Positions 2,949 to 62,183 of a DNA stretch of 64,000 bases are shown here, one piece after another (position 1 is the stretch's first letter; every line of letters begins with the position of its first letter). A model generated the notes under the pieces. The model saw only the letters and a program-made list of their open reading frames with translations. It did not search any database and had not been told where the DNA came from. The position numbers and the translations under genes were made by a program. This stretch comes from an uncultured Candidatus Bathyarchaeia archaeon (lineage in GTDB: Archaea; Thermoproteota; Bathyarchaeia; TCS64), in the NCBI GenBank assembly GCA_964529745.1, contig CAZGZR010000004.1:551-64550 (forward strand). The letters are read 5' to 3'.

Positions 2949-2969
2949 CCCGTGGCCTCCACATGTGTT

Positions 2970-2984
2970 TATACAAATTGTATA
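2970..2984. promoter_or_regulatory. Palindromic operator copy 1 (TATACAAATTGTATA) overlapping minus-strand TATA-like box
   Basis: 7-1-7 palindrome, one of six copies, all just upstream of start codons. Confidence 0.75.
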
Positions 2985-3040
2985 TTTATGGTTTAGGATT
3001 GGGGCTGCAAAACCCTCATAAACCCCTTTTCAGAGTAGTA

Positions 3041-28348: not shown

Positions 28349-28591
28349 GTGACCGATAGCGACCTTAATACTCTTCTACGGCAGCTGGTGCCGGCGCCGC
28401 CACCGTATCCACCCGTACCCTTGTTTCTGTTAGAGAACGAGACCGCCCTAAAGGAGATTTTTAAACCGACGTTTAGAAATGACATACTTTTAGACTCGGT
28501 TTCGTGGGGTGTAGGTGTAGGGATAAGCCGGATCATAAGACAGGCACTATCACAGTTGAAGATACCTGGAGCAAAAAGTGTGGAGATCTAG
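28349..28591 (+). CDS. Small PPPYPP protein with GxGxG segment
   Basis: PPPYPPVP...WGVGVG; GGAG RBS. Confidence 0.6.
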   Translation: MTDSDLNTLLRQLVPAPPPYPPVPLFLLENETALKEIFKPTFRNDILLDSVSWGVGVGISRIIRQALSQLKIPGAKSVEI

Positions 28592-28593
28592 AT

Positions 28594-30402
28594 ATGAGTA
28601 GGGAAGAGAGACAGGACCCCTTTGAGGCGATAGCGAAGGGATTGAAGCAGGTTCAAACCGTAGTAACTACTTTTGACCAGGGAATGAAGGTAATAGACGA
28701 CATGGCCAAGAGGATTGATGATCAGTTCGGTGTCCCACAAAATGAACCGGCGCCGCAGCTCCCTAAATCCCCCGAGAGGCCACCCGCTGCGACTAAAGTG
28801 TACGGCGCAGAGGCCAAGACCTACAAAGGACAGACAGACGTAGACTACTGTATCGAATGTCTAACAGGCACAACTAAGCTGTACACAGGTAACTCGACTG
28901 TTAAGATAAGTAGCATACTGGATAAACACACAGTAATCGGTCACACAGGACAAGTTGAGAGTATTGATAATGTGATTAGCAGAGACTACGATGGCCCATT
29001 AGTAGAGTTAAAGTTTGCTTACACTAACATTCCGCTATACATATCCCCGGAACACCCCGCATACATTGTCAGAAACGTTAGAAAGCCTCAGTCTACATGG
29101 AGAGAAGAGGGAATACAAGAAAAAGACTTAGATTGGGTTCCATGTGAAGAGTTAACTGACAGAGATTTCATTGCTTTTCCTAGGATAAGGGAAATTAAAG
29201 ATGTAGAAATAGCCTCTGAGCGACTTATGGAACTGTCAGGTATATATATAGCTGAAGGGAGCCCAGACAAACAAGAAAGGGGTTTGAATGTAATCTTTAG
29301 CTTTGGACGAGATGAAGTCGAGCTAATAGGAGACACCGTAAACCTGATTGAGAATATCTATGGGATTACTCCCTGTGTTACAGACACCGAAACTCAGACT
29401 GCAGTAAGGGTGATTTTTTCTAGTAAATACTATGGCCCATATTTCGAGCAGTTTGGCAAGGGAGCTAAGAATAAAACTATTCCACAGTGGGTACTCTACC
29501 TACCTGAATACAAGCAAGTTAAGTTACTTAGAGGTGCCTTTAGGGGTGATGGATCACCAGGAGAATACTGTTTCAGATATACAACGGTATCAGAACAGCT
29601 AGCTTACAGACTTAGATTACTGTTATTCCGGCTGGGTATACTACATGGCGTATATGAGAGAGAAAAAGATGATTCTGAGATAAATGGCCGTAAGATAAAG
29701 GGCGGAACATATTACGAGATAACAATATCTGGAGACGCCGCTAGACAATTTGCAGAGATAACTGATTTCGAATATGACGGAGGAGAAAAAACAGCCGGTA
29801 ACCATGGATACGTCACGGCGAACTACGTCTTCATACCTATAAAAGAAGCGAGAAAAATTCACTTTAAGGGGAAACTCTATAACCTACATGTACCTGGCTC
29901 CGAGTCTTATCTGACTATTCACGGTGCTCTGCATAACTGTGCGGTCAAGCACAGCCAGACGGCCAAGGTTCTCATGAGAGAGGCACTACAGAGAGCAGAG
30001 TCAAACGGTGTGGATACAGAGGGTGTGAAAGAGAAGGTCCGGGGCGTCGTTGAGGAGCTGTCCGGCCTGGAAGACGACACAACCACTGTATCCAGTCAGC
30101 AGGTGATAATCCTTAACGGCGCCTCCAGAGACCTACGTAAGTTCATCTATGAGTCCAGGGCTGAGATTGGGGGAGCGAAAATAAGCACTCTCCGAGAGAT
30201 CAAGACCATGATAGATCAGCTGGTGGAGGCCACTTACAAGGTTAGAGAGACAGAGGAGTGTATAGGCTGCACCACTGAGCAGATATGCGGCGGGATAGCT
30301 GAGTGCGTGGATTTTGTCGATAAGAATGTGGAGGGTATTAGGGACCCGGCGGTGATACGTAAGGTATTAGCTGAAGCCCGGCGAAAGTACGGCAGAGAAT
30401 AA
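28594..30402 (+). CDS. Helical Cys-motif hypothetical protein interrupted by an intein (mature ~242 aa)
   Basis: Start ATG 28594; extein junction restores YCIECAVKH. Confidence 0.8.
   Translation: MSREERQDPFEAIAKGLKQVQTVVTTFDQGMKVIDDMAKRIDDQFGVPQNEPAPQLPKSPERPPAATKVYGAEAKTYKGQTDVDYCIECLTGTTKLYTGNSTVKISSILDKHTVIGHTGQVESIDNVISRDYDGPLVELKFAYTNIPLYISPEHPAYIVRNVRKPQSTWREEGIQEKDLDWVPCEELTDRDFIAFPRIREIKDVEIASERLMELSGIYIAEGSPDKQERGLNVIFSFGRDEVELIGDTVNLIENIYGITPCVTDTETQTAVRVIFSSKYYGPYFEQFGKGAKNKTIPQWVLYLPEYKQVKLLRGAFRGDGSPGEYCFRYTTVSEQLAYRLRLLLFRLGILHGVYEREKDDSEINGRKIKGGTYYEITISGDAARQFAEITDFEYDGGEKTAGNHGYVTANYVFIPIKEARKIHFKGKLYNLHVPGSESYLTIHGALHNCAVKHSQTAKVLMREALQRAESNGVDTEGVKEKVRGVVEELSGLEDDTTTVSSQQVIILNGASRDLRKFIYESRAEIGGAKISTLREIKTMIDQLVEATYKVRETEECIGCTTEQICGGIAECVDFVDKNVEGIRDPAVIRKVLAEARRKYGRE
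28858..29937 (+). mobile_element. Intein with LAGLIDADG homing endonuclease (360 aa)
   Basis: Starts CLTG, SPEHP block B, LSGIYIAEGS and LLRGAFRGDGS, ends LYNL...LHN followed by Cys. Confidence 0.93.
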
Positions 30403-35281: not shown

Positions 35282-35353
35282 TATAGTTTGCGCTGGATAA
35301 CCTGTGCAGGTGTCAGGGTTTTTATGTGGTACCCCCCAGTTGTTAGGTATACC

Positions 35354-36160
35354 ATGTCCATGCTCACGCCGGATATGCTTAAGGCCCGGATAAGGCTAGC
35401 AATGAGGCACCCCAACTCGGCTACTCCTGCAAGAGAGATTATTGAGAAGGCCCTAGAGAAAAGAGTCTATGTGGCGTTTAGCGGTGGCCGCTGTAGCCAG
35501 GTAACCCTCCACCTGGTCATACAGCAGGATCCAGATATCCCCGTGATGTTCAACAACACCGGCGTAGAGTACCCTGAAACCGTGAAACATGTGCACCGGA
35601 TCGCCGAGGAATGGAACCTAAACTTCAAGGAGATACGCCCAGAAACCGATTACTGGACCCTCGTTAAAGAGCACGGGTTCCCCCAGCTGAGGGGCTCCTC
35701 TAAGAAGAAGGGACGGCCAAGGAAGCCGGCGTGCTGCAGGTACCTGAAAGAGGAACCGGCTAAAAGATACATGGAGGAGCACCACATGGATGGCTTTATC
35801 TCGGGGCTTCGGGTAGAGGAGAGCCGCCCCCGGGCGTTGGCGATATACCAGAGGGGTCCCTATTACTTGGCTAAGAGGGACGGTATCTGGAAGTTCCACC
35901 CGGTGGCTGTGTGGTCCATGGGAAAGCTCATGAGGTATGTGAAGGACCACGATATCCCTTTGAACCCGCTTTACGAGAAGGGCCTGCCTCGAGTAGGCTG
36001 TATGCCGTGCACTGGATTCTTGGACTGGCGGCAGCAGCTGATGGAGGTTAACCCAGAGTATTATAAGTGGCTTAACCGGGAGTACCAGAAGTCGCTAGGC
36101 GAGCCTACCCTATGGGAGTTCGTCGACGAATACGATCTCTGCGTCGAGGACCTCAAGTAA
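35354..36160 (+). CDS. PAPS-reductase-family protein (variant PP-loop)
   Basis: AFSGGRCS, NTGVEYPET, CC..LK.EP, GLRVEES..R, RVGCMPC. Confidence 0.85.
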   Translation: MSMLTPDMLKARIRLAMRHPNSATPAREIIEKALEKRVYVAFSGGRCSQVTLHLVIQQDPDIPVMFNNTGVEYPETVKHVHRIAEEWNLNFKEIRPETDYWTLVKEHGFPQLRGSSKKKGRPRKPACCRYLKEEPAKRYMEEHHMDGFISGLRVEESRPRALAIYQRGPYYLAKRDGIWKFHPVAVWSMGKLMRYVKDHDIPLNPLYEKGLPRVGCMPCTGFLDWRQQLMEVNPEYYKWLNREYQKSLGEPTLWEFVDEYDLCVEDLK

Positions 36161-36269
36161 TCCCTTTATGGGATTACGTTAATGTTCACCGTTTAGAAAC
36201 CTTGTTTTAACAGCATTATAACCCGTGTAACAGCACAAGATATAAATTACTGTCTGTTGTTAAGAATAA

Positions 36270-36350
36270 CTGAGGGTTGGGCGCGTAGGGGTCCAGGGCC
36301 ATTCCGGATCAAGAACCTCTGGGCCTTCTCACCCTCAGCCTGAACTTTTT
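36270..36350 (+). ncRNA. Candidate hairpin small RNA upstream of origin
   Basis: TATAAATTA at 36241; CTGAGGGT/ACCCTCAG stem plus 11-bp inner stem with G-U pairs; T5 at 36346-36350. Confidence 0.5.
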
Positions 36351-36537
36351 GAGGTAGTCCAGCGCCACTGGACTACGTAACTGTTTTAATGGTGATATAC
36401 CCCCTCTAGATTGATCCGGAATGGAACGTGATCAATGTAATCTCAAAGAGGATAAGTTTCTCTCCCGGCCGCCGATCGTCTCCTACAGACAGGATAATCC
36501 TAATATCTGTGATACAATTATACCGCTGCTTCTAACT

Positions 36538-36692
36538 TCTACGCAGGTAGTCTACTGGGAGGAGACTACCTACTCCGAAGGTCTACTAGCAAAAACTACA
36601 GGTAGTAGTCTACCAGTAGACTACTACCCCCCCTATTTCACTAATAGTCAATCGGAGGAGATAGTCTCTTGTCAGTAGACTACCTGCGTAGA
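36538..36692. repeat. 155-bp imperfect palindrome with GTAG(T/A)CTAC iterons; candidate replication origin
   Basis: Perfect 20-bp outer arms (36538-36557/36673-36692) and 13-bp central arms (36601-36613/36616-36628). Confidence 0.8.
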
Positions 36693-36701
36693 CGACAGAA
36701 G

Positions 36702-37256
36702 ATGATTAAACAGCTCACAAAACTAATCTTTCTATCTGATATACCTCACGAATGGGTTCTAGATGAGCTACATAACCTCGTCTTAAACATGAGCAGCTTC
36801 AAGGTTTTGGCCTGCATCCTCAATCACCGGGCAGCCACGGCCTACTTTCTAAGAAGCGAGCTCAAGATGACGAAACCGACGGTCTACAAGTCTCTGAATT
36901 ATCTAAAGGATCAGGGATACATCGTTGAGTCTAGGCCTGTGTCAATTAAGGGGACCAGGAGCGTGAAGGTGTATGCGGTCCCCGATTACACAGCCGACGA
37001 CGTTCTACACGCCAGGGAGAAAGACAGGATCACTAGGACGCCGGCGTACACAGAGGTAGAGAGGATATACCAGGCTATGCTTGACGATTATCTCCTGTTG
37101 AAGATAACTAACTATCTGCCTGAGAGGAAAAAGATCTACACCGGTTCGCTGAACGAAGTGGGAAGAAAACTCGTCAAGGGCGTAAGGTGGCTGGATATAC
37201 AGCCTATGGTTCTACAGAAATTTGAGGATCAAGGCTACAAAGTAGTAGTGGGGTGA
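36702..37256 (+). CDS. Winged-helix protein, candidate origin-binding initiator
   Basis: LKMTKPTVYKSLNYLKDQGYIVE wHTH; directly before mcm; ATG 36702. Confidence 0.75.
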   Translation: MIKQLTKLIFLSDIPHEWVLDELHNLVLNMSSFKVLACILNHRAATAYFLRSELKMTKPTVYKSLNYLKDQGYIVESRPVSIKGTRSVKVYAVPDYTADDVLHAREKDRITRTPAYTEVERIYQAMLDDYLLLKITNYLPERKKIYTGSLNEVGRKLVKGVRWLDIQPMVLQKFEDQGYKVVVG

Positions 37257-37260
37257 CAAT

Positions 37261-39318
37261 ATGGCAGAACAAAAAGAGGAAACATACGACTCTCAATTTA
37301 TACAGTTTATAGAGGATTACAAAATAGGGAGGGGATACCCCTACGAAAAGAAAATATCCTTATTGGTAACCGAAGGAAAGAGAAGCTTAACCGTAGACTA
37401 TACTGACTTGTACGCTTACGATATTGGCCTGGCAGTTAAGGTTCTTAACAACCCGATCTTGATGCTCAAGGAGTTTGGGGTAGCTGTGTTTCAGAAGATG
37501 CGGCCAAGTCTATCTCCTCTAGATGCAGAGCAGTTAAGGGCCTACGAAGAAAAAGAGAACGTGATCACTGTCAGGTTCAATAAGGTACCGAATCTAGTAT
37601 CATTACGCCACCTGGAAGCAGCTCACATAGGGACGATGATAACCGTGACCGGCATAGTGGTAAGCACCAGGGTACCTTATCCAAAGCTAACAAAAGCCGT
37701 GTTCAGGTGCATGACCCCCGGGTGCAAAACGGTCTCAAATGAGTTAGTGCAGCCCTACGAATTCCTGTTCCCGACACCGGGAGAGTGCCCCAACTGCAAG
37801 GGTAATATGTGGATCGTCGACCCAATGCTAAGCACATACACGAATGTTCAAGAAGTAAAAATTCAGGAGCGACCTGAGGAACTTCCCCCGGGTCAATTAC
37901 CTCACAGCATCAAGGTCCTCCTTAAAGACGACTTAGTGAACACCGTGAATCCAGGAGACCGAGTGACTCTAACCTGCATAGTCTCCGCTAAACAGGTGAA
38001 ACCAAAGTCCCTTGAAATGGAGCTACTGCTAGAGGGAAACTACGTTGAGCAGATAGCGCCGGGGCAGGAGTCCATGGAGATGTCACCAGAGGATCTAGAC
38101 AAGATAAAGGAGCTCGCAGCGGATCCCTACATATTCAACAAGTTAGTGGAAAGCATGGCGCCGAGCATCTATGGGCACAGGTACATCAAAGAGGCCATGG
38201 CGGAAGCTCTCTTTGGTGGGGTCCCTAAACAGATAGGAACCACAAGGATAAGAGGAGATGTAGACGTTCTGATGGTAGGTGACCCGGGCACCGCCAAGAG
38301 CCAGATGCTCGAGAGAGCAGCTAGACTAGCTCCCCGGGGGCTACTGACGACAGGTAGAGGGTCGACGGCGGCGGGGCTCACGGCGGCAGCCATCCAGGAG
38401 AGAGGAGGCGGCGGCTTCGTCCTCGAGGCGGGGGCCCTGGTTCTCGCGGATAAGGGTGTCTGCTGCATAGACGAGATCGACAAGATGAGGGACGAGGACA
38501 GGGGCGCCATACACCCCGCCATGGAGCAGCAGGTGGTGAGCATCGCCAAAGGAGGGATAGTTGCGACCCTCAATGCAAGGACAGCGGTGATAGCTGCAGC
38601 GAACCCCACCCTGGGGCGGTATAACCCCTACCAGACGATAACCGAGAACATCACATTATCGGTGCCCCTGCTAAACCGGTTTGATACCATATTCGTGATG
38701 AGAGATGAGCCGAATCCTGAGCGGGATGCGGAGATGGCGGACCACATCTTAAGGATGCACCGAGCCCCAGAGGAGATGAAGGCGCCGATACCTGACGAGC
38801 TTCTACGCAAGTACATAAACAGCGCAAAGGCGATAACGCCGACGCTGACGGACGAGGCGGTTAAGATGCTGCGAGACTTTTACCTGAAGCTTAGAGCCGC
38901 GTCCGTCGATTCAACCATAATGATAACGGCTCGACAGCTGGAGAGCCTGATAAGGCAGAGTGAGGCAAGGGCGAGGGCACGGCACAGTAAAGAAGTGACG
39001 GAAGAGGACGCTATGGGTGTCATAGCCCTGATGAACAACGTCATGACCCAGATAGGCATAGACCCAGAGACGGGACAACCGGACCTAGATATAATCTTGA
39101 CCGGGAAACCAAAGAGCCTTCAGGATAAGCTTCAGAGATTGCTCACAGTGATAAGGGAGATGTCAGTGAACACGGCTGTAAGAGACGATGATCTATACGA
39201 AGTTCTCCAAAGTGACCACGGCATGGCCCTCAGCGAGTCCGCTAGACTGGTTGGCATATTGATGAGGGATGGAGCAATATTCAGTCCACGCCCAGGGTTC
39301 TACAAGGCCATAAGCTAG
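37261..39318 (+). CDS. mcm: MCM replicative helicase
   Basis: Zn finger, GDPGTAKSQ, CCIDEIDKM, AAANP, ITARQLES, C-terminal wH. Confidence 0.97.
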   Translation: MAEQKEETYDSQFIQFIEDYKIGRGYPYEKKISLLVTEGKRSLTVDYTDLYAYDIGLAVKVLNNPILMLKEFGVAVFQKMRPSLSPLDAEQLRAYEEKENVITVRFNKVPNLVSLRHLEAAHIGTMITVTGIVVSTRVPYPKLTKAVFRCMTPGCKTVSNELVQPYEFLFPTPGECPNCKGNMWIVDPMLSTYTNVQEVKIQERPEELPPGQLPHSIKVLLKDDLVNTVNPGDRVTLTCIVSAKQVKPKSLEMELLLEGNYVEQIAPGQESMEMSPEDLDKIKELAADPYIFNKLVESMAPSIYGHRYIKEAMAEALFGGVPKQIGTTRIRGDVDVLMVGDPGTAKSQMLERAARLAPRGLLTTGRGSTAAGLTAAAIQERGGGGFVLEAGALVLADKGVCCIDEIDKMRDEDRGAIHPAMEQQVVSIAKGGIVATLNARTAVIAAANPTLGRYNPYQTITENITLSVPLLNRFDTIFVMRDEPNPERDAEMADHILRMHRAPEEMKAPIPDELLRKYINSAKAITPTLTDEAVKMLRDFYLKLRAASVDSTIMITARQLESLIRQSEARARARHSKEVTEEDAMGVIALMNNVMTQIGIDPETGQPDLDIILTGKPKSLQDKLQRLLTVIREMSVNTAVRDDDLYEVLQSDHGMALSESARLVGILMRDGAIFSPRPGFYKAIS

Positions 39319-43755: not shown

Positions 43756-44382
43756 TCACCACTTCCTATCGAAGCTTTCTTTCATCATGGTGCCGGCTAT
43801 CTTCACGTAGTACATCGCCTGCTCTATCCTCTCCCAGCCGAGGACGTCCTTGATCTCGTAGGGGCTGAACCCTTTACGGGCTAGCATGGTCGCAAAGGTG
43901 CCTCGGAGGCAGTGGGGGAAAAGCCGGTGGTGTAGATCGGTTCTGTCTTCCAGGTCTGTGAGGAGACGGTTAACGTATTGGCGCCAGGGGTATACCTCCA
44001 TTACCTCTCTGTGGTCCTTGTAGAACCACTTCAGTTGATCTTTGTACTCGGGGACGACGGGTATGGTGCGGGCCCCCGCCGGCGTCTTTGGCTGCCAGTA
44101 TCCTGAGGGCTTGGTGATCTTGTTTTTCTTGTTGCGGTACTCTTCTCTGCAGGGGGTGCAGTCGCACTTCATTCGGGAGGGTATTGTTATTATCTCCCGG
44201 GGCCAATTCACCCAATCTTTTTTCATGTGTGTGAACTCGCTTACCCTGAACCCGACGTAGACGAGGCTGCGGAACGAAAAATCGTCTAGTCGGGTGGCGC
44301 AGGCGTCTAGCACGGCGTCAACTTCCGGATCGGTTAGAATGTTTTCCTTTGTCTTGGGCTTAGAGTAGTCCTTGCGAGTCAT
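43756..44382 (-). CDS. Compact tyrosine recombinase, SNJ2-like integrase
   Basis: GFRVSE, CDCTPC insert, WQPKT, HCLR, LGW, catalytic Y; 208 aa. Confidence 0.85.
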   Translation of the reverse strand: MTRKDYSKPKTKENILTDPEVDAVLDACATRLDDFSFRSLVYVGFRVSEFTHMKKDWVNWPREIITIPSRMKCDCTPCREEYRNKKNKITKPSGYWQPKTPAGARTIPVVPEYKDQLKWFYKDHREVMEVYPWRQYVNRLLTDLEDRTDLHHRLFPHCLRGTFATMLARKGFSPYEIKDVLGWERIEQAMYYVKIAGTMMKESFDRKW

Positions 44383-46314: not shown

Positions 46315-48126
46315 ATGACCCCACAGCCTAAAAGTATCTTAATAGGGTTTGCGGGGGGCAGCGGAAGCCCCGTGTACCTAGAGCAACATCATACAACCAT
46401 AAGCGGCCAAACCCAGAAGTCCGGGAAGACCACGGGCGTAAAAGCGATGATAGCACGCAGCGCCATGAGGGCCGTGGTGTTCCTCACCAAACGAGGCGAG
46501 ATAGGGTTCCATGGGTTCCCCGAGATCCAGCCTTATTACCGAGAACCCAAGAAGGGGGCACTCATAGACTGGCAGTACGTGGAGGCGATACTTACCGCCA
46601 CCATGGGAGAGAAGATGAAGATAGAGAGGAGCTTCATAATCAACGCCTGCAAGGGAGCACATAGCCTTGAGGACGTGTACCAGAACATCTTAGGGCGCAA
46701 AGAGAAGGCACGCAGAGGCTTCGACATATCGGTGTACACCAACTTGGCCGCCTACTTCGAGATAATCCTACCCCAGATCAAGGCGCGAAGTTTCGCCACG
46801 AGTCTACCCCTTGAGAAGGGCGTCAATGTGATGAACCTGCTGGACCTCACGGAGGAGATGCAGGCCCTGGTCCTCCAGGCGACCCTCACCTACATCATGG
46901 ACCGGATGCGAGGGGTGATAGCGGTGATCCCCGAGGCCTGGAAATTCATACCCAAAGAGGGAAACCCAGTAAAACTAGCAGCTGAAAGCTTCATCCGCCA
47001 AGGAGCCGCTCTCAACAACTACCTATGGATTGACAGCCAAGATCTAACGGGTGTGGACACCAAACTGTTGAAGCAGTGTAACAACTGGCTTATGGGATTC
47101 CAGAGAGAGCTCAACGAGGCGGAGCGGGTAGCTAAGACGGCGGGCAAGAAGGTAAGCTACACCATGATCCAGTCGTTGAAGCTGGGGCACTTCGTGCTTC
47201 TCCAGGGGACGGAGGACCCCAAGTTGGTGTACCTGTGGCCGGATAGGGTGCCGATGCAGATGGCGATTGATGTGGCTATGGGACTAATTGAACCGGAGGT
47301 AGTGAAGGCATACCTGGAGAAGCTTAGCGAAAAATCGCTGGAAGAGGAGGAGGAGATGTACAGACAAAAATGCGAGGAGCTTGAAACCGAGAAAAAGCGC
47401 CTAGAGGATGAGTTAGAGAAGCTGAGGAGCCAGCCTCCTGAGGGAGGGGTGGACCCTGAGATCGTGGAGAAGGTGCAGCGCCTGGAGGCCGAGGTAACGG
47501 AGCTTAAGGTGCTGAAAGAGGAGTACGATGAACTCAAAGCTGAGAAAGAAGTGGCAGAGGGTCAATGTGACAAGCTGCTCAAGGAGAAAACCGCCCTCGA
47601 GGGGGAGAACACCAAACTGTCTAATGAAGTGGCTAGGATGGAGAACAATGTGAGGTCCGTTGATCTCATAGCCGAGGCGGTGGCAAACATAGTGTTCCCC
47701 AAAGTAGAAGATAAAATCGTGGAGAAACTGAACCTGTCCGCTCCTCGAGGGGAAGCCGAGTTGGGGGTAGACGTCGAACTAGAGACCTCAAAACCCCATC
47801 TTACGCTAACGGAGAGCCGCTACAAGGTGACCTTCAAGGAAGACACCCAGGAAGGAAGAATCCTGTTGCTATGGATTCGGGGGGAACTGAACAAAGGGGA
47901 GGGGTTCACAAAGGGTAAGGTAAGGACCCTCTACAAGAAGTATGGCTGGGATAACTATCACGCCCGGTGGACGGGGGACGCCCTAACAAAACTCGTAGAT
48001 TACGGCTTCCTGGAGACAAAGGTATTCGGGAACCGCACCGACTATTTATTCACCATGACCCCCGAAGAGGCAGCGAAAGAAGACAAGATGGATCTCGAGG
48101 TTGTACCCAAGCTGGTGAAAGTTTGA
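46315..48126 (+). CDS. HerA/FtsK-like ATPase with coiled coil and C-terminal wHTH
   Basis: GQTQKSGKTT Walker A, VIPEAW Walker-B variant, R.G, IDSQ. Confidence 0.75.
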   Translation: MTPQPKSILIGFAGGSGSPVYLEQHHTTISGQTQKSGKTTGVKAMIARSAMRAVVFLTKRGEIGFHGFPEIQPYYREPKKGALIDWQYVEAILTATMGEKMKIERSFIINACKGAHSLEDVYQNILGRKEKARRGFDISVYTNLAAYFEIILPQIKARSFATSLPLEKGVNVMNLLDLTEEMQALVLQATLTYIMDRMRGVIAVIPEAWKFIPKEGNPVKLAAESFIRQGAALNNYLWIDSQDLTGVDTKLLKQCNNWLMGFQRELNEAERVAKTAGKKVSYTMIQSLKLGHFVLLQGTEDPKLVYLWPDRVPMQMAIDVAMGLIEPEVVKAYLEKLSEKSLEEEEEMYRQKCEELETEKKRLEDELEKLRSQPPEGGVDPEIVEKVQRLEAEVTELKVLKEEYDELKAEKEVAEGQCDKLLKEKTALEGENTKLSNEVARMENNVRSVDLIAEAVANIVFPKVEDKIVEKLNLSAPRGEAELGVDVELETSKPHLTLTESRYKVTFKEDTQEGRILLLWIRGELNKGEGFTKGKVRTLYKKYGWDNYHARWTGDALTKLVDYGFLETKVFGNRTDYLFTMTPEEAAKEDKMDLEVVPKLVKV

Positions 48127-57302: not shown

Positions 57303-57323
57303 CTCAGAACCTCAGAATCAGGT

Positions 57324-57338
57324 TATACAACTTGTATA
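57324..57338. promoter_or_regulatory. Palindromic operator copy 3 (TATACAACTTGTATA)
   Basis: 21 bp upstream of start 57302. Confidence 0.75.
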
Positions 57339-57468
57339 TTTATCGTTTATGTGGAGAATGGCACCGCCGTAGAAATGGGAAGGGTCAGGATGCCTGAAGG
57401 GTGCCCTAGAGCCCTTCTTGAGGCCACACACTACGACGGTGCACAAATAAAGAAAAGGGCACCCGTGT

Positions 57469-60148: not shown

Positions 60149-60173
60149 TTTCTTGTGGCCTCCACCCTGAAAA

Positions 60174-60188
60174 TATACAACTTGTATA
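60174..60188. promoter_or_regulatory. Palindromic operator copy 4 (TATACAACTTGTATA)
   Basis: 25 bp upstream of the PCNA start. Confidence 0.75.
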
Positions 60189-60202
60189 TTTAACAGTTAA
60201 GG

Positions 60203-62111: not shown

Positions 62112-62129
62112 GTTTCCACCGTATAAGCT

Positions 62130-62144
62130 TATACAACTTGTATA
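62130..62144. promoter_or_regulatory. Palindromic operator copy 5 (TATACAACTTGTATA)
   Basis: 18 bp upstream of start 62111. Confidence 0.75.
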
Positions 62145-62183
62145 TTTAACGTTTAAGGCTATGTTTATGTTTAAGAAAAGGGG

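What the first reader, a model, noticed from the sequence alone, without database searches (positions are those of the whole stretch)
36241..36424. Hairpin RNA whose loop is exactly complementary to a site leading into the origin and mcm operon
Seen: TATAAATTA (36241), a long G-U-containing hairpin 36270-36338 and a T5 run. Its loop CCATTCCGGATCAA (36299-36312) is the exact reverse complement of TTGATCCGGAATGG (36411-36424), about 25 bp after a second TATA-like TTTTAAT (36384) and covering ATG 36421. A 9-bp hairpin (36354-36376) lies between. Known: loop-mediated antisense or pseudoknot control regulates bacterial plasmid replication (ColE1, IncI/IncB). Inference: RNA-based copy-number or lysogeny control of an archaeal MCM replicon, which I have not seen described.
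Basis: partly seen in the sequence, partly recalled or inferred. Interest (0 to 1): 0.85.

Follow-up and report, generated by a model that had tools for sequence, protein, structure and literature searches.

The report
Inverted repeat upstream of archaeal MCM operon
A perfect 14-letter inverted repeat sits in the control region in front of the replication-helicase genes of a mobile element in an uncultured sediment archaeon; it is unlikely to be chance and may act through RNA pairing, but no transcript or usable relative could be examined, so the RNA-control idea remains untested.

Summary
The 14-nt inverted repeat (36299-36312 / 36411-36424) is exact and unique in the 2.83-Mb genome. About 5e-4 such repeats are expected by chance in this 541-bp spacer. 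The hairpin carrying arm A is not better than shuffles (z -1.46). It disappears if the transcript is longer: a 36244-36445 RNA instead forms the A-B helix (P about 0.99). The "9-bp hairpin" is one of four 27-bp palindromic operators (AGGTAGTC-N11-GACTACCT), so DNA-binding control is clearly present. ATG 36421 opens an 85-aa ORF with no support. A promoter model built from this genome supports the second TATA (8.7 bits, start near 36411-36415) and a site at 36210 (8.0 bits), not TATAAATTA at 36241. The host is a Bathyarchaeia MAG. The element has one known relative, a 21.9-kb contig in the same sample, whose alignment stops at 36282; its spacer could not be fetched. No RNA run exists.

Verdict: real, non-random repeat; mechanism unresolved.
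- RNA pairing on the + strand, in trans or in cis: 0.42.
- Paired protein sites: 0.25.
- Invertible promoter segment: 0.12.
- Chance: 0.10.

The closest precedent is the phage P4 CI RNA, not ColE1.

The parts
35288..36160 (+). PAPS-reductase-family gene that ends the upstream unit. The same gene order is kept in the only relative.
   Evidence: Pfam PF01507, E 3.6e-33. The relative contig aligns over 35638-36282.
36199..36223 (+). Promoter-like element P0 (TGTTTTAACAGCATTATAACC). By the usual archaeal TATA-to-start distance the predicted start is near 36233-36246.
   Evidence: The genome-derived promoter matrix gives 8.0 bits at 36210 and 6.5 bits at 36199. It is 70% identical over 27 nt to the P2 region (repeat family D2). 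It lies in the block that aligns with the relative.
36241..36249 (+).
   Evidence: Present. It is not among the + strand hits of 5.5 bits or more, and scores 6.4 bits on the - strand.
36270..36338 (+). Predicted imperfect hairpin with 25 pairs, 4 of them G-U.
   Evidence: -33.1 kcal/mol, z -1.46. Pair list. It is lost in the fold of 36244-36445.
36299..36312 (+). Arm A of the perfect 14-nt inverted repeat (CCATTCCGGATCAA).
   Evidence: Unique in the genome.
36346..36350 (+). T5 run, a possible archaeal oligo-T terminator.
   Evidence: it is the only T5 run in the spacer, but T5 is a weak signal genome-wide. One low-depth contig of run X3 has a C inserted after 36347.
36352..36378 (.). Operator O1, AGGTAGTC-N11-GACTACGT.
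   Evidence: Repeat family D1 with 4 copies. GTAGTC..GACTAC occurs 5 times in the genome, 3 of them in this spacer.
36379..36392 (+). The predicted start is near 36411-36415.
   Evidence: Best + strand hit in the spacer at 8.7 bits; the 75th percentile of real upstream regions is 7.7 bits.
36411..36424 (+). Arm B of the inverted repeat (TTGATCCGGAATGG).
36407..36439 (+). Local hairpin TAGATTGATC / GATCAATGTA. It pairs the 5' half of arm B and leaves GAAUGG in its loop.
   Evidence: Inverted repeat I10. Unpaired probabilities.
36421..36678 (+). 85-aa open frame across the operators; probably not a gene.
   Evidence: No Pfam family. No homologue was found, and the ORF itself is absent from the protein collection, which does hold the neighbouring wHTH of this contig.
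36529..36701 (.). Large imperfect palindrome (66-nt arms, 79% complementary). It carries operators O2 (36545-36571), O3 (36600-36628) and O4 (36659-36685). It is a candidate origin or autoregulatory region.
   Evidence: I1 and D1. Fold of 36405-36720 gives -122.6 kcal/mol, z -9.06, with 0 of 100 shuffles as good.
36669..37256 (+). Winged-helix DNA-binding protein. It is 184 aa from ATG 36702, or 195 aa from TTG 36669.
   Evidence: Weak TrmB and MarR matches. One homologue, P0002, at 58% identity.
37261..39318 (+). Complete MCM helicase gene, a second copy in this genome.
   Evidence: Pfam MCM_N, MCM_OB, MCM and MCM_lid domains. Another MCM lies on contig C37. The best relatives are 45-54% identical.
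43756..44382 (-). 208-aa tyrosine recombinase, the only recombinase seen near the repeat.
   Evidence: Pfam PF00589, E 1.8e-13. PHROG integrase, E 3.6e-23.

Best explanation
The 541-bp spacer 36161-36701 is the control region of a winged-helix-protein plus MCM replication operon. The operon belongs to a mobile element in a Bathyarchaeia genome.

Two layers of control are visible.

Layer 1 is well supported as DNA-level. Four 27-bp palindromic operators (AGGTAGTC-N11-GACTACCT) are present. One abuts the best promoter in the spacer (P2), and three sit in a large palindrome just before the operon. They are most likely bound by a dimer of the winged-helix protein encoded next to them, for autoregulation and/or origin recognition. 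That assignment is inferred.

Layer 2 is the finding itself. The perfect 14-nt inverted repeat most likely works as RNA on the + strand. Transcripts started upstream, probably from the promoter-like site at 36210 rather than from TATAAATTA, carry arm A.
- If such a transcript stops at the T5 run, arm A sits in the top of a hairpin. It can then meet the 5' end of the P2 transcript, whose first letters are arm B. Contact could begin as a six-base loop-loop interaction (CCAUUC with GAAUGG) and extend to 14 pairs.
- If the transcript reads through, A and B form one long-range helix in the leader.

Either way the 5' end of the replication-operon RNA is tied up, which would damp wHTH-MCM expression as the element's dosage rises.

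Shown: the repeat, its non-randomness, the operators, the promoter-like scores and the predicted folds. Inferred: that these RNAs exist, that they pair, and the direction of the effect.
For: - The repeat is exact, sharp-edged and unique in the genome. About 5e-4 are expected by chance in this spacer.
- Its inverted orientation on one strand is what same-strand RNA pairing needs.
- The 14-mer is palindromic only in its central TCCGGA, unlike operators O1-O4. This fits a dimeric DNA-binding protein less well (sequence).
- Arm B begins at the start predicted for the best promoter-like site in the spacer: 8.7 bits, in the top quarter of 1206 real upstream regions.
- A second promoter-like site (8.0 bits at 36210) lies upstream of arm A. 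It is in the only part of the spacer that still aligns with the relative element.
- The + strand folds better than the - strand: -33.1 against -27.4 kcal/mol for 89 nt, and z -2.92 against -2.03 for 202 nt.
- In the short RNA, A36301 to C36305 are 74-100% unpaired. In the P2 RNA, GAAUGG is 42-100% unpaired, depending on the assumed 5' end.
- In a read-through RNA each A-B pair has probability 0.95-0.997, and the A-B fold is the minimum-energy fold at 15-70 C.
- The architecture has a working precedent upstream of replication genes. P4 CI RNA pairs with seqA and seqC of the same untranslated leader (PMC4825925, passage).
Against: - There is no RNA evidence at all: no listed run is RNA.
- There is no comparative evidence. 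The one relative could not be read beyond 36282, and no other relative was found.
- The hairpin alone is no better than shuffles (z -1.46), and it depends on where the RNA is assumed to start.
- T5 is a weak terminator signal, and a near-identical low-depth contig breaks it with an inserted C.
- Any DNA-level inverted repeat would give the same predicted RNA pairing.
- 14 of 14 Watson-Crick pairs with no wobble is more than RNA pairing needs.
- The target lies about 280 nt before the wHTH start codon, not at a supported ribosome-binding site or start codon.
- The rest of this spacer is demonstrably built from protein-type palindromes.
- The cofold gain over the two separate folds is only -6.9 kcal/mol.
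Confidence: 0.42

Rival explanations
1. The two 14-mers are DNA sites for a protein, such as a second regulator, the recombinase or a replication factor. Bound at both arms, centres 112 bp apart, the protein loops out operator O1 and promoter P2, or marks the edge of the origin. In this reading no RNA pairing matters.
For: - The spacer is dense with protein-type palindromes, four operators found almost nowhere else in the genome, so DNA-binding control is certainly at work here.
- Arm B overlaps the predicted start site of P2. That is where archaeal repressors commonly act (established knowledge, recalled).
- The repeat is perfect Watson-Crick with sharp edges.
- The hairpin that would argue for RNA is not significant.
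Against: - The 14-mer is not itself a palindrome beyond TCCGGA, and it occurs only twice.
- No candidate binder can be named.
- A 112-bp centre-to-centre distance is about 10.7 helical turns, so the two sites are not on the same face (my arithmetic).
- Inverted orientation is not required for looping.
Confidence: 0.25
2. The 14-bp inverted repeats are crossover sites of an invertible 98-bp segment (36313-36410). The segment carries operator O1 and promoter P2 and is flipped by a tyrosine recombinase. This would give an on/off switch for the replication operon of the fimS type.
For: - Perfect, sharp-edged short inverted repeats flank a promoter that reads out across one arm.
- A small 208-aa tyrosine recombinase is encoded 7.3 kb away.
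- FimB and FimE are of similar size (recalled, not from a call).
Against: - Only one orientation is seen in all contigs of three runs. Contigs hide minor forms, so this is weak.
- The recombinase is not adjacent.
- After inversion a 6.7-bit promoter-like site would still point rightwards, so a clean off state is not obvious.
- No second example was found.
Confidence: 0.12
3. The repeat is a chance match with no function, noticed because the reader was already looking at a repeat-rich spacer.
For: - Random genomes of this size and local composition give 2.75 such repeats against 9 observed, so a sizeable share of such repeats are chance.
- About 0.06 are expected per 64-kb window (my arithmetic).
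- Neither the hairpin nor T5 adds significance.
Against: - The expectation in this particular 541-bp spacer is about 5e-4.
- Arm B coincides with the predicted start of the best promoter.
- A second partner for arm B (GATCAATGTA, 36430-36439) makes an interlocking set of pairings.
Confidence: 0.1

Closest known systems
Satellite phage P4 immunity: CI RNA pairing with seqA and seqC in the leader of the replication operon (related: the c4 RNA of P1/P7, which I recall rather than read)
   Same: A small hairpin RNA is made from the same strand and the same leader as its target. Its sequence is complementary to a site about 100 nt away, so the DNA shows a short inverted repeat. The genes controlled are the element's replication genes, in a prophage/plasmid-type element (PMC4825925 passage; PMC3632133 passage).
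   Different: P4 has two targets flanking CI; only one was found here. P4 acts through bacterial premature termination, and CI is cut out by host RNases; neither is known for archaea. There is no sequence or structure match to any Rfam family. The replication protein here is an MCM, not a primase-helicase.
IncI-alpha / IncB plasmid repZ pseudoknot with its Inc antisense RNA
   Same: A hairpin loop is complementary to a downstream site on the same RNA.
   Different: In those plasmids the target lies next to the rep ribosome-binding site and is coupled to a leader peptide. Here the target is about 280 nt before the wHTH start, and the ORF at ATG 36421 is unsupported. No opposite-strand RNA is indicated.
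ColE1 RNAI/RNAII and R1 CopA/CopT cis-antisense control
   Same: Loop-initiated RNA-RNA recognition that sets replicon dosage.
   Different: Those RNAs are transcribed from the opposite strand across the target, so they are complementary over their whole length. Here complementarity is 14 nt, between two same-strand sites 98 nt apart.
Antisense RNA of the archaeal virus phiH (Stolt and Zillig 1993, as cited in PMC6210493)
   Same: RNA-level control in the immunity/replication region of an archaeal provirus-plasmid (passages).
   Different: As I recall it, the phiH RNA is a counter-transcript of the early lytic transcript, not a same-strand loop-target pair. The host and the replication protein (RepH) also differ.
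Autoregulated rep operons with palindromic operators, such as pRN1 Orf56/CopG binding its own promoter, and the pRN1 stem-loop origin
   Same: A small DNA-binding protein is encoded just before the replication protein, with palindromes and a large stem-loop in the adjoining non-coding DNA (PMC3869888 passages).
   Different: That protein has a different fold (ribbon-helix-helix rather than winged helix) and the replicase differs. The pRN1 origin lies downstream of the rep gene.

Membership tests
P4 CI / P1 c4 type same-strand antisense immunity RNA | A short sequence in the RNA is complementary to a target on the same strand in the leader of the controlled operon | tested here: met
   14 of 14 complementary, with 98 nt between the arms.
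P4 CI / P1 c4 type same-strand antisense immunity RNA | Two target sites (seqA and seqC in P4; a2 and b2 in P1, recalled) | tested here: not met
   No second match of 11 nt or more to the loop complement in the 64-kb window. The 9-10-mers seen are at chance level.
P4 CI / P1 c4 type same-strand antisense immunity RNA | A stable small RNA is actually produced from the leader | not testable with these tools
   No RNA run holds the DNA.
P4 CI / P1 c4 type same-strand antisense immunity RNA | Homology to the described RNA families (C4 and IsrK in Rfam) | tested here: not met
   No Rfam match at gathering score over the window. Over 36100-36760 no match had an E-value below 0.44, and none was to these families.
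Cis-antisense plasmid copy control (ColE1, R1) | The regulator is transcribed from the opposite strand across its target, giving full-length complementarity | tested here: not met
   The two complementary sites are separate 14-mers on one strand.
IncB / IncI-alpha pseudoknot control | The target adjoins the ribosome-binding site or start of the rep gene or of a coupled leader peptide | tested here: not met
   The wHTH starts at 36669 or 36702. The ORF at ATG 36421 has no homologue and was not called as a gene.
Invertible promoter (fimS-type inverton) | Short inverted repeats flank a promoter-bearing segment | tested here: met
   Arms at 36299 and 36411 with P2 at 36379-36392 between them.
Invertible promoter (fimS-type inverton) | Both orientations are present in a population | tested here: inconclusive
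   Only contigs, not raw reads, were available. All of them show one orientation.
MITE / small transposon with terminal inverted repeats | Multiple copies in the genome and a target-site duplication | tested here: not met
   The 14-mer occurs only at these two places. The flanks GG and AA are not a duplication.
MCM-encoding archaeal mobile element | A complete MCM that is additional to the chromosomal copy and sits next to mobile-element genes | tested here: met
   All four MCM domains are present. A second MCM lies on C37. An integrase, two DNA methylases and a ribbon-helix-helix protein are nearby. The element's borders were not determined.

The most novel reading that the evidence does not exclude
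An archaeal counterpart of P4-type RNA immunity. A small same-strand hairpin RNA is made from the leader of a provirus or plasmid replication operon, and its loop kisses the 5' hairpin of the wHTH-MCM messenger. This sets copy number or keeps the element quiescent. The hairpin region has diverged in a sister element living in the same sediment, as expected for heteroimmune elements. It would be the first RNA-based replication control shown for an MCM replicon, and the first trans-acting (non-counter-transcript) immunity RNA in archaea.
Probability: 0.2. Interest if true: 0.75.

Novelty: new variant of a known kind. Interest (0 to 1): 0.4.

Why it matters
How archaeal mobile elements that carry their own MCM helicase control their replication is essentially unknown. 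As far as I know, no origin or copy-control circuit has been worked out for one; the literature searches turned up none, but they were not exhaustive. This spacer offers a compact, testable circuit: four operators, a large palindrome, two promoter-like sites and one perfect 14-nt complementary pair. If the pair acts as RNA, a bacterial phage-satellite strategy would also exist in Archaea, with archaeal transcription machinery. If it acts as DNA, it still marks the regulatory core of a new Bathyarchaeia replicon.

Tried and rejected
**Searches for relatives, to test for compensatory change (all empty or too distant)**
- DNA 36160-37260 against 60 related genomes: 0 of 60 matched.
- wHTH against 400 genomes of the class: 54 of 400 had matches, all 36% identity or less and over the wHTH domain only. 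The two best (L094, L095) have no MCM beside them.
- P0002 against 70 genomes of the family: 0 of 70.
- PAPS reductase against 400 genomes of the class at E <= 1e-40: 0 of 400.
- Viral contigs: MCM gave 5 loci at 31-35% identity. The wHTH, its alignment, the PAPS reductase and the two-arm DNA pattern gave none.
- Metagenome contigs: the wHTH alignment and the two-arm pattern gave none.
- Genome contigs with MCM: the best 80 of 473 relatives were 45-54% identical, apparently ordinary Bathyarchaeia MCMs.
- Phage records with the 4-kb region: none.

**Other checks**
- Sequencing runs: no RNA holder listed. Of three runs laid, all contigs, two may be the source of this DNA.
- Perfect inverted repeats of 12 nt or more in 85 other MCM loci: 19 in 709,948 nt against about 7.7 expected, with no consistent position before the MCM.
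- tRNA and Rfam scans: nothing.
- Attachment-site idea: rejected. The only other partial copy of the 14-mer, a 9-mer at 44323 inside the recombinase gene, does not extend. No long direct repeats bound an element.
- MITE idea: rejected.
- GATC clustering: 4 sites in 170 bp, which is not unusual; 0.5-0.9% of windows have as many.
- Small ORFs in 36161-36420: four of 21-32 aa, none convincing.
- wHTH structure: the model was too poor to use, pLDDT 51. PDB sequence search gave only weak MarR-like hits, E 0.05 or more.
- Element borders by DNA comparison within the genus: uninformative.
- Apparent inverted contig ends are poly-C/poly-G artefacts.
- Earlier notes of this scan: nothing near this place and no look-alikes.

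Full report
**What is in the sequence**

- TATAAATTA at 36241-36249.
- A predicted hairpin at 36270-36338.
- A T5 run, which lies at 36346-36350.
- CCATTCCGGATCAA at 36299-36312 and its exact reverse complement at 36411-36424.
- TTTTAAT at 36384-36390.
- ATG at 36421.
- A 9-bp inverted repeat at 36354-36376.

The stretch is a 541-bp non-coding spacer. On its left is a PAPS-reductase-family gene (35288-36160). On its right is an operon of a winged-helix DNA-binding protein (36669 or 36702 to 37256) and a complete MCM helicase (37261-39318).

**Where it comes from**

- The window is contig C4 of a 2.83-Mb, 161-contig genome.
- The MCM's nearest relatives are all Bathyarchaeia genomes, at 45-54% identity.
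- The genome has another MCM on contig C37, so this one is an extra copy.
- Around it lie two DNA methylases, a radical-SAM protein, a ribbon-helix-helix protein, a LAGLIDADG-bearing ORF and a 208-aa tyrosine recombinase. This points to a mobile element.
- I could not fix the element's borders.

**Is it more than chance?**

The 14-nt inverted repeat is.
- With up to one mismatch the word occurs only at these two places in the genome.
- The whole genome has 9 perfect inverted repeats with arms of 14 nt or more and a spacer of 20-200 nt.
- Twelve random genomes with the same local composition gave 2.75 +/- 1.9.
- That is about 5e-4 expected in this spacer and about 0.06 in the window (my arithmetic).
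- Two of the nine repeats are in this spacer.

The hairpin is not.
- Its energy is -33.1 kcal/mol, z -1.46, and 17 of 200 shuffles fold as well.
- Its four G-U pairs out of 25 make the + strand fold better than the - strand (-27.4 kcal/mol, z -0.53). This is only a weak hint of an RNA on the + strand.
- The hairpin is fragile. Folding 36266-36440 keeps it. Folding 36244-36445 replaces it with a long-range helix between the two 14-mers, each pair at probability 0.95-0.997, and this A-B fold is the minimum-energy fold at every temperature tried from 15 to 70 C (z -2.92, 2 of 200 shuffles as good).

T5 is a weak signal here. In this genome 21% of gene-downstream stretches and 17% of gene-upstream stretches carry one. 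One low-depth, near-identical contig from a third run has a C inserted inside the T run.

**What the surroundings show**

- GTAGTC..GACTAC occurs five times in the genome, three of them in this spacer; the copy at 36659 is degenerate.
- Three copies lie in a large imperfect palindrome (36529-36701) whose fold has z -9.06.
- These are classic sites for a dimeric DNA-binding protein. The winged-helix protein encoded next to them is the obvious candidate. That assignment is inference: its structure model was too poor to use.

*Promoters.* I built a promoter matrix from 1206 upstream regions of this genome; it has an A-rich element followed by TTWWA.
The 75th percentile of real upstream regions is 7.7 bits.
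- With the usual archaeal distance of about 26 nt from TATA to start (established knowledge), transcription would begin at 36411-36415, on arm B.
- The next hit is at 36210 (8.0 bits), giving a start near 36244.

*The ORF at ATG 36421.* This 85-aa frame runs across the operators. It has no Pfam family and no homologue. It is absent from the protein collection that does hold the neighbouring wHTH of this contig. I treat it as not a gene.

*Arm B's local hairpin.* Arm B is part of a local hairpin, TAGATTGATC / GATCAATGTA at 36407-36439. This pairs its 5' half and leaves GAAUGG in the loop. In the short RNA, A36301 to C36305 of arm A are 74-100% unpaired, so a six-base loop-loop contact is possible.

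**Relatives**

The wHTH has one homologue among 5.8 billion clustered proteins: P0002, 58% identical, on a 21,907-bp contig.
- Laying three runs on the region found a contig of exactly that length in run X1, at depth 18 beside the window's own contig at depth 101.
- It has the same gene order. It aligns with the window from inside the PAPS-reductase gene up to 36282.
- From 36205 to 36282 there are no insertions or deletions.
- It then falls below 80% likeness until 37981.
- So the promoter-like part of the spacer is kept and the hairpin, both arms and the operators have diverged.
- That pattern is expected if the two elements have different specificities, but it does not test the hypothesis. 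I could not obtain the contig's letters.

All other searches for relatives were empty or too distant. No RNA run is listed.

**How it most likely works**

I put RNA-level pairing on the + strand first, at 0.42.

Reasons for:
- The two sites are in the orientation that same-strand pairing requires.
- The 14-mer is not a palindrome beyond TCCGGA, unlike the true operators.
- Arm B sits exactly at the predicted 5' end of the best promoter's transcript.
- Promoter-like sequence precedes arm A.
- The + strand folds better than the - strand.

Reasons against:
- There is no transcript evidence and no covariation evidence.
- The hairpin is not significant.
- The repeat is more perfect than RNA pairing needs.
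- The target is about 280 nt before the first supported start codon.

Rivals:
- Paired protein-binding sites, 0.25.
- An invertible 98-bp promoter segment flipped by the nearby small tyrosine recombinase, 0.12. Only one orientation is seen, but only contigs were available.
- Chance, 0.10.

**Comparison with what is known**

ColE1-type control uses an opposite-strand transcript and does not fit.
- The IncB pseudoknot has the loop-to-downstream-site geometry, but its target adjoins the rep start. That is not the case here.
- The closest precedent is satellite phage P4. In lysogeny its CI RNA, cut from an untranslated leader, pairs with seqA and seqC upstream and downstream on the same strand and stops expression of the replication genes (PMC4825925, passage read; PMC3632133, passage read).
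- This locus has only one target and no likeness to any Rfam family. It would work like P4 without being a member of that family.
- In archaea, antisense RNA in the immunity/replication region of virus phiH has been known since 1993 (PMC6210493, passages read).
- A repressor plus stem-loop origin is described for pRN1 (PMC3869888, passages read).
- I recall counter-transcripts reported for pRN1 and pSSVx, but found no held paper to confirm this.
- My searches found no description of RNA control of an MCM replicon. They were keyword searches of open-access text only.

**Verdict**

The repeat is a real, non-random inverted repeat in the control region of a nearly unique Bathyarchaeia MCM element. 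The RNA-control reading is plausible but untested. Part of the original description needs correcting: the 9-bp hairpin, ATG 36421 and the first TATA. Interest is moderate. If the RNA mechanism were confirmed it would be a new archaeal variant of a known bacterial strategy.

Noticed in passing
window 36352-36378, 36545-36571, 36600-36628, 36659-36685; palindrome 36529-36701: There are four copies of a 27-bp palindromic operator (AGGTAGTC-N11-GACTACCT). Three of them lie in a large imperfect palindrome whose fold has z -9.06, directly before the wHTH-MCM operon. This is a candidate origin and autoregulatory site of the element.
   Followed up: partly
run X1, record 2 (21,907-bp contig), matching window 35638-36282 and 37981-38957: A sister element with the same PAPS-reductase, spacer, wHTH, MCM order lives in the same sample at about one fifth of the depth. 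Its wHTH is 58% identical, and its spacer has diverged from 36283 onward.
   Followed up: partly
window 2956-2995, 57310-57349, 60160-60199, 62116-62155: A 40-nt motif with the palindromic core TATACAA(C/A)TTGTATA followed by TTTA recurs four times. Three copies sit just upstream of - strand gene starts (2948, 60148, 62111). It looks like a shared operator-plus-TATA promoter of a small regulon.
   Followed up: no
whole genome G000; window 36303 and 36415: TCCGGA occurs 298 times in 2.83 Mb (0.105 per kb). That is about a third of what the base composition predicts (my arithmetic). Two of the three copies in the window are the cores of the two 14-mers. Avoidance of this palindrome could reflect a restriction system.
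   Followed up: no
window 28504-30402: A 632-aa ORF has a LAGLIDADG domain (E 1.1e-11) and a faint likeness to the anaerobic ribonucleotide reductase large subunit. It may be an intein-bearing or homing-endonuclease-bearing gene.
   Followed up: no
window 46315-48126: A 603-aa ORF has a weak match to the terminase large subunit (PHROG 2666, E 1.2e-5). The element or its neighbourhood may therefore be a head-tailed provirus rather than a plasmid.
   Followed up: no
G000 contig C4, first about 50 and last about 100 bases (outside the window): The contig ends are poly-C/poly-G runs. This looks like a sequencing artefact, not terminal inverted repeats.
   Followed up: yes
window 36346-36350, run X3 record 11: A 195-nt contig from a later sample is identical over 36180-36373 except for a C inserted after 36347, which breaks the T5 run. 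Its depth is 2.5, so this may be an error.
   Followed up: no
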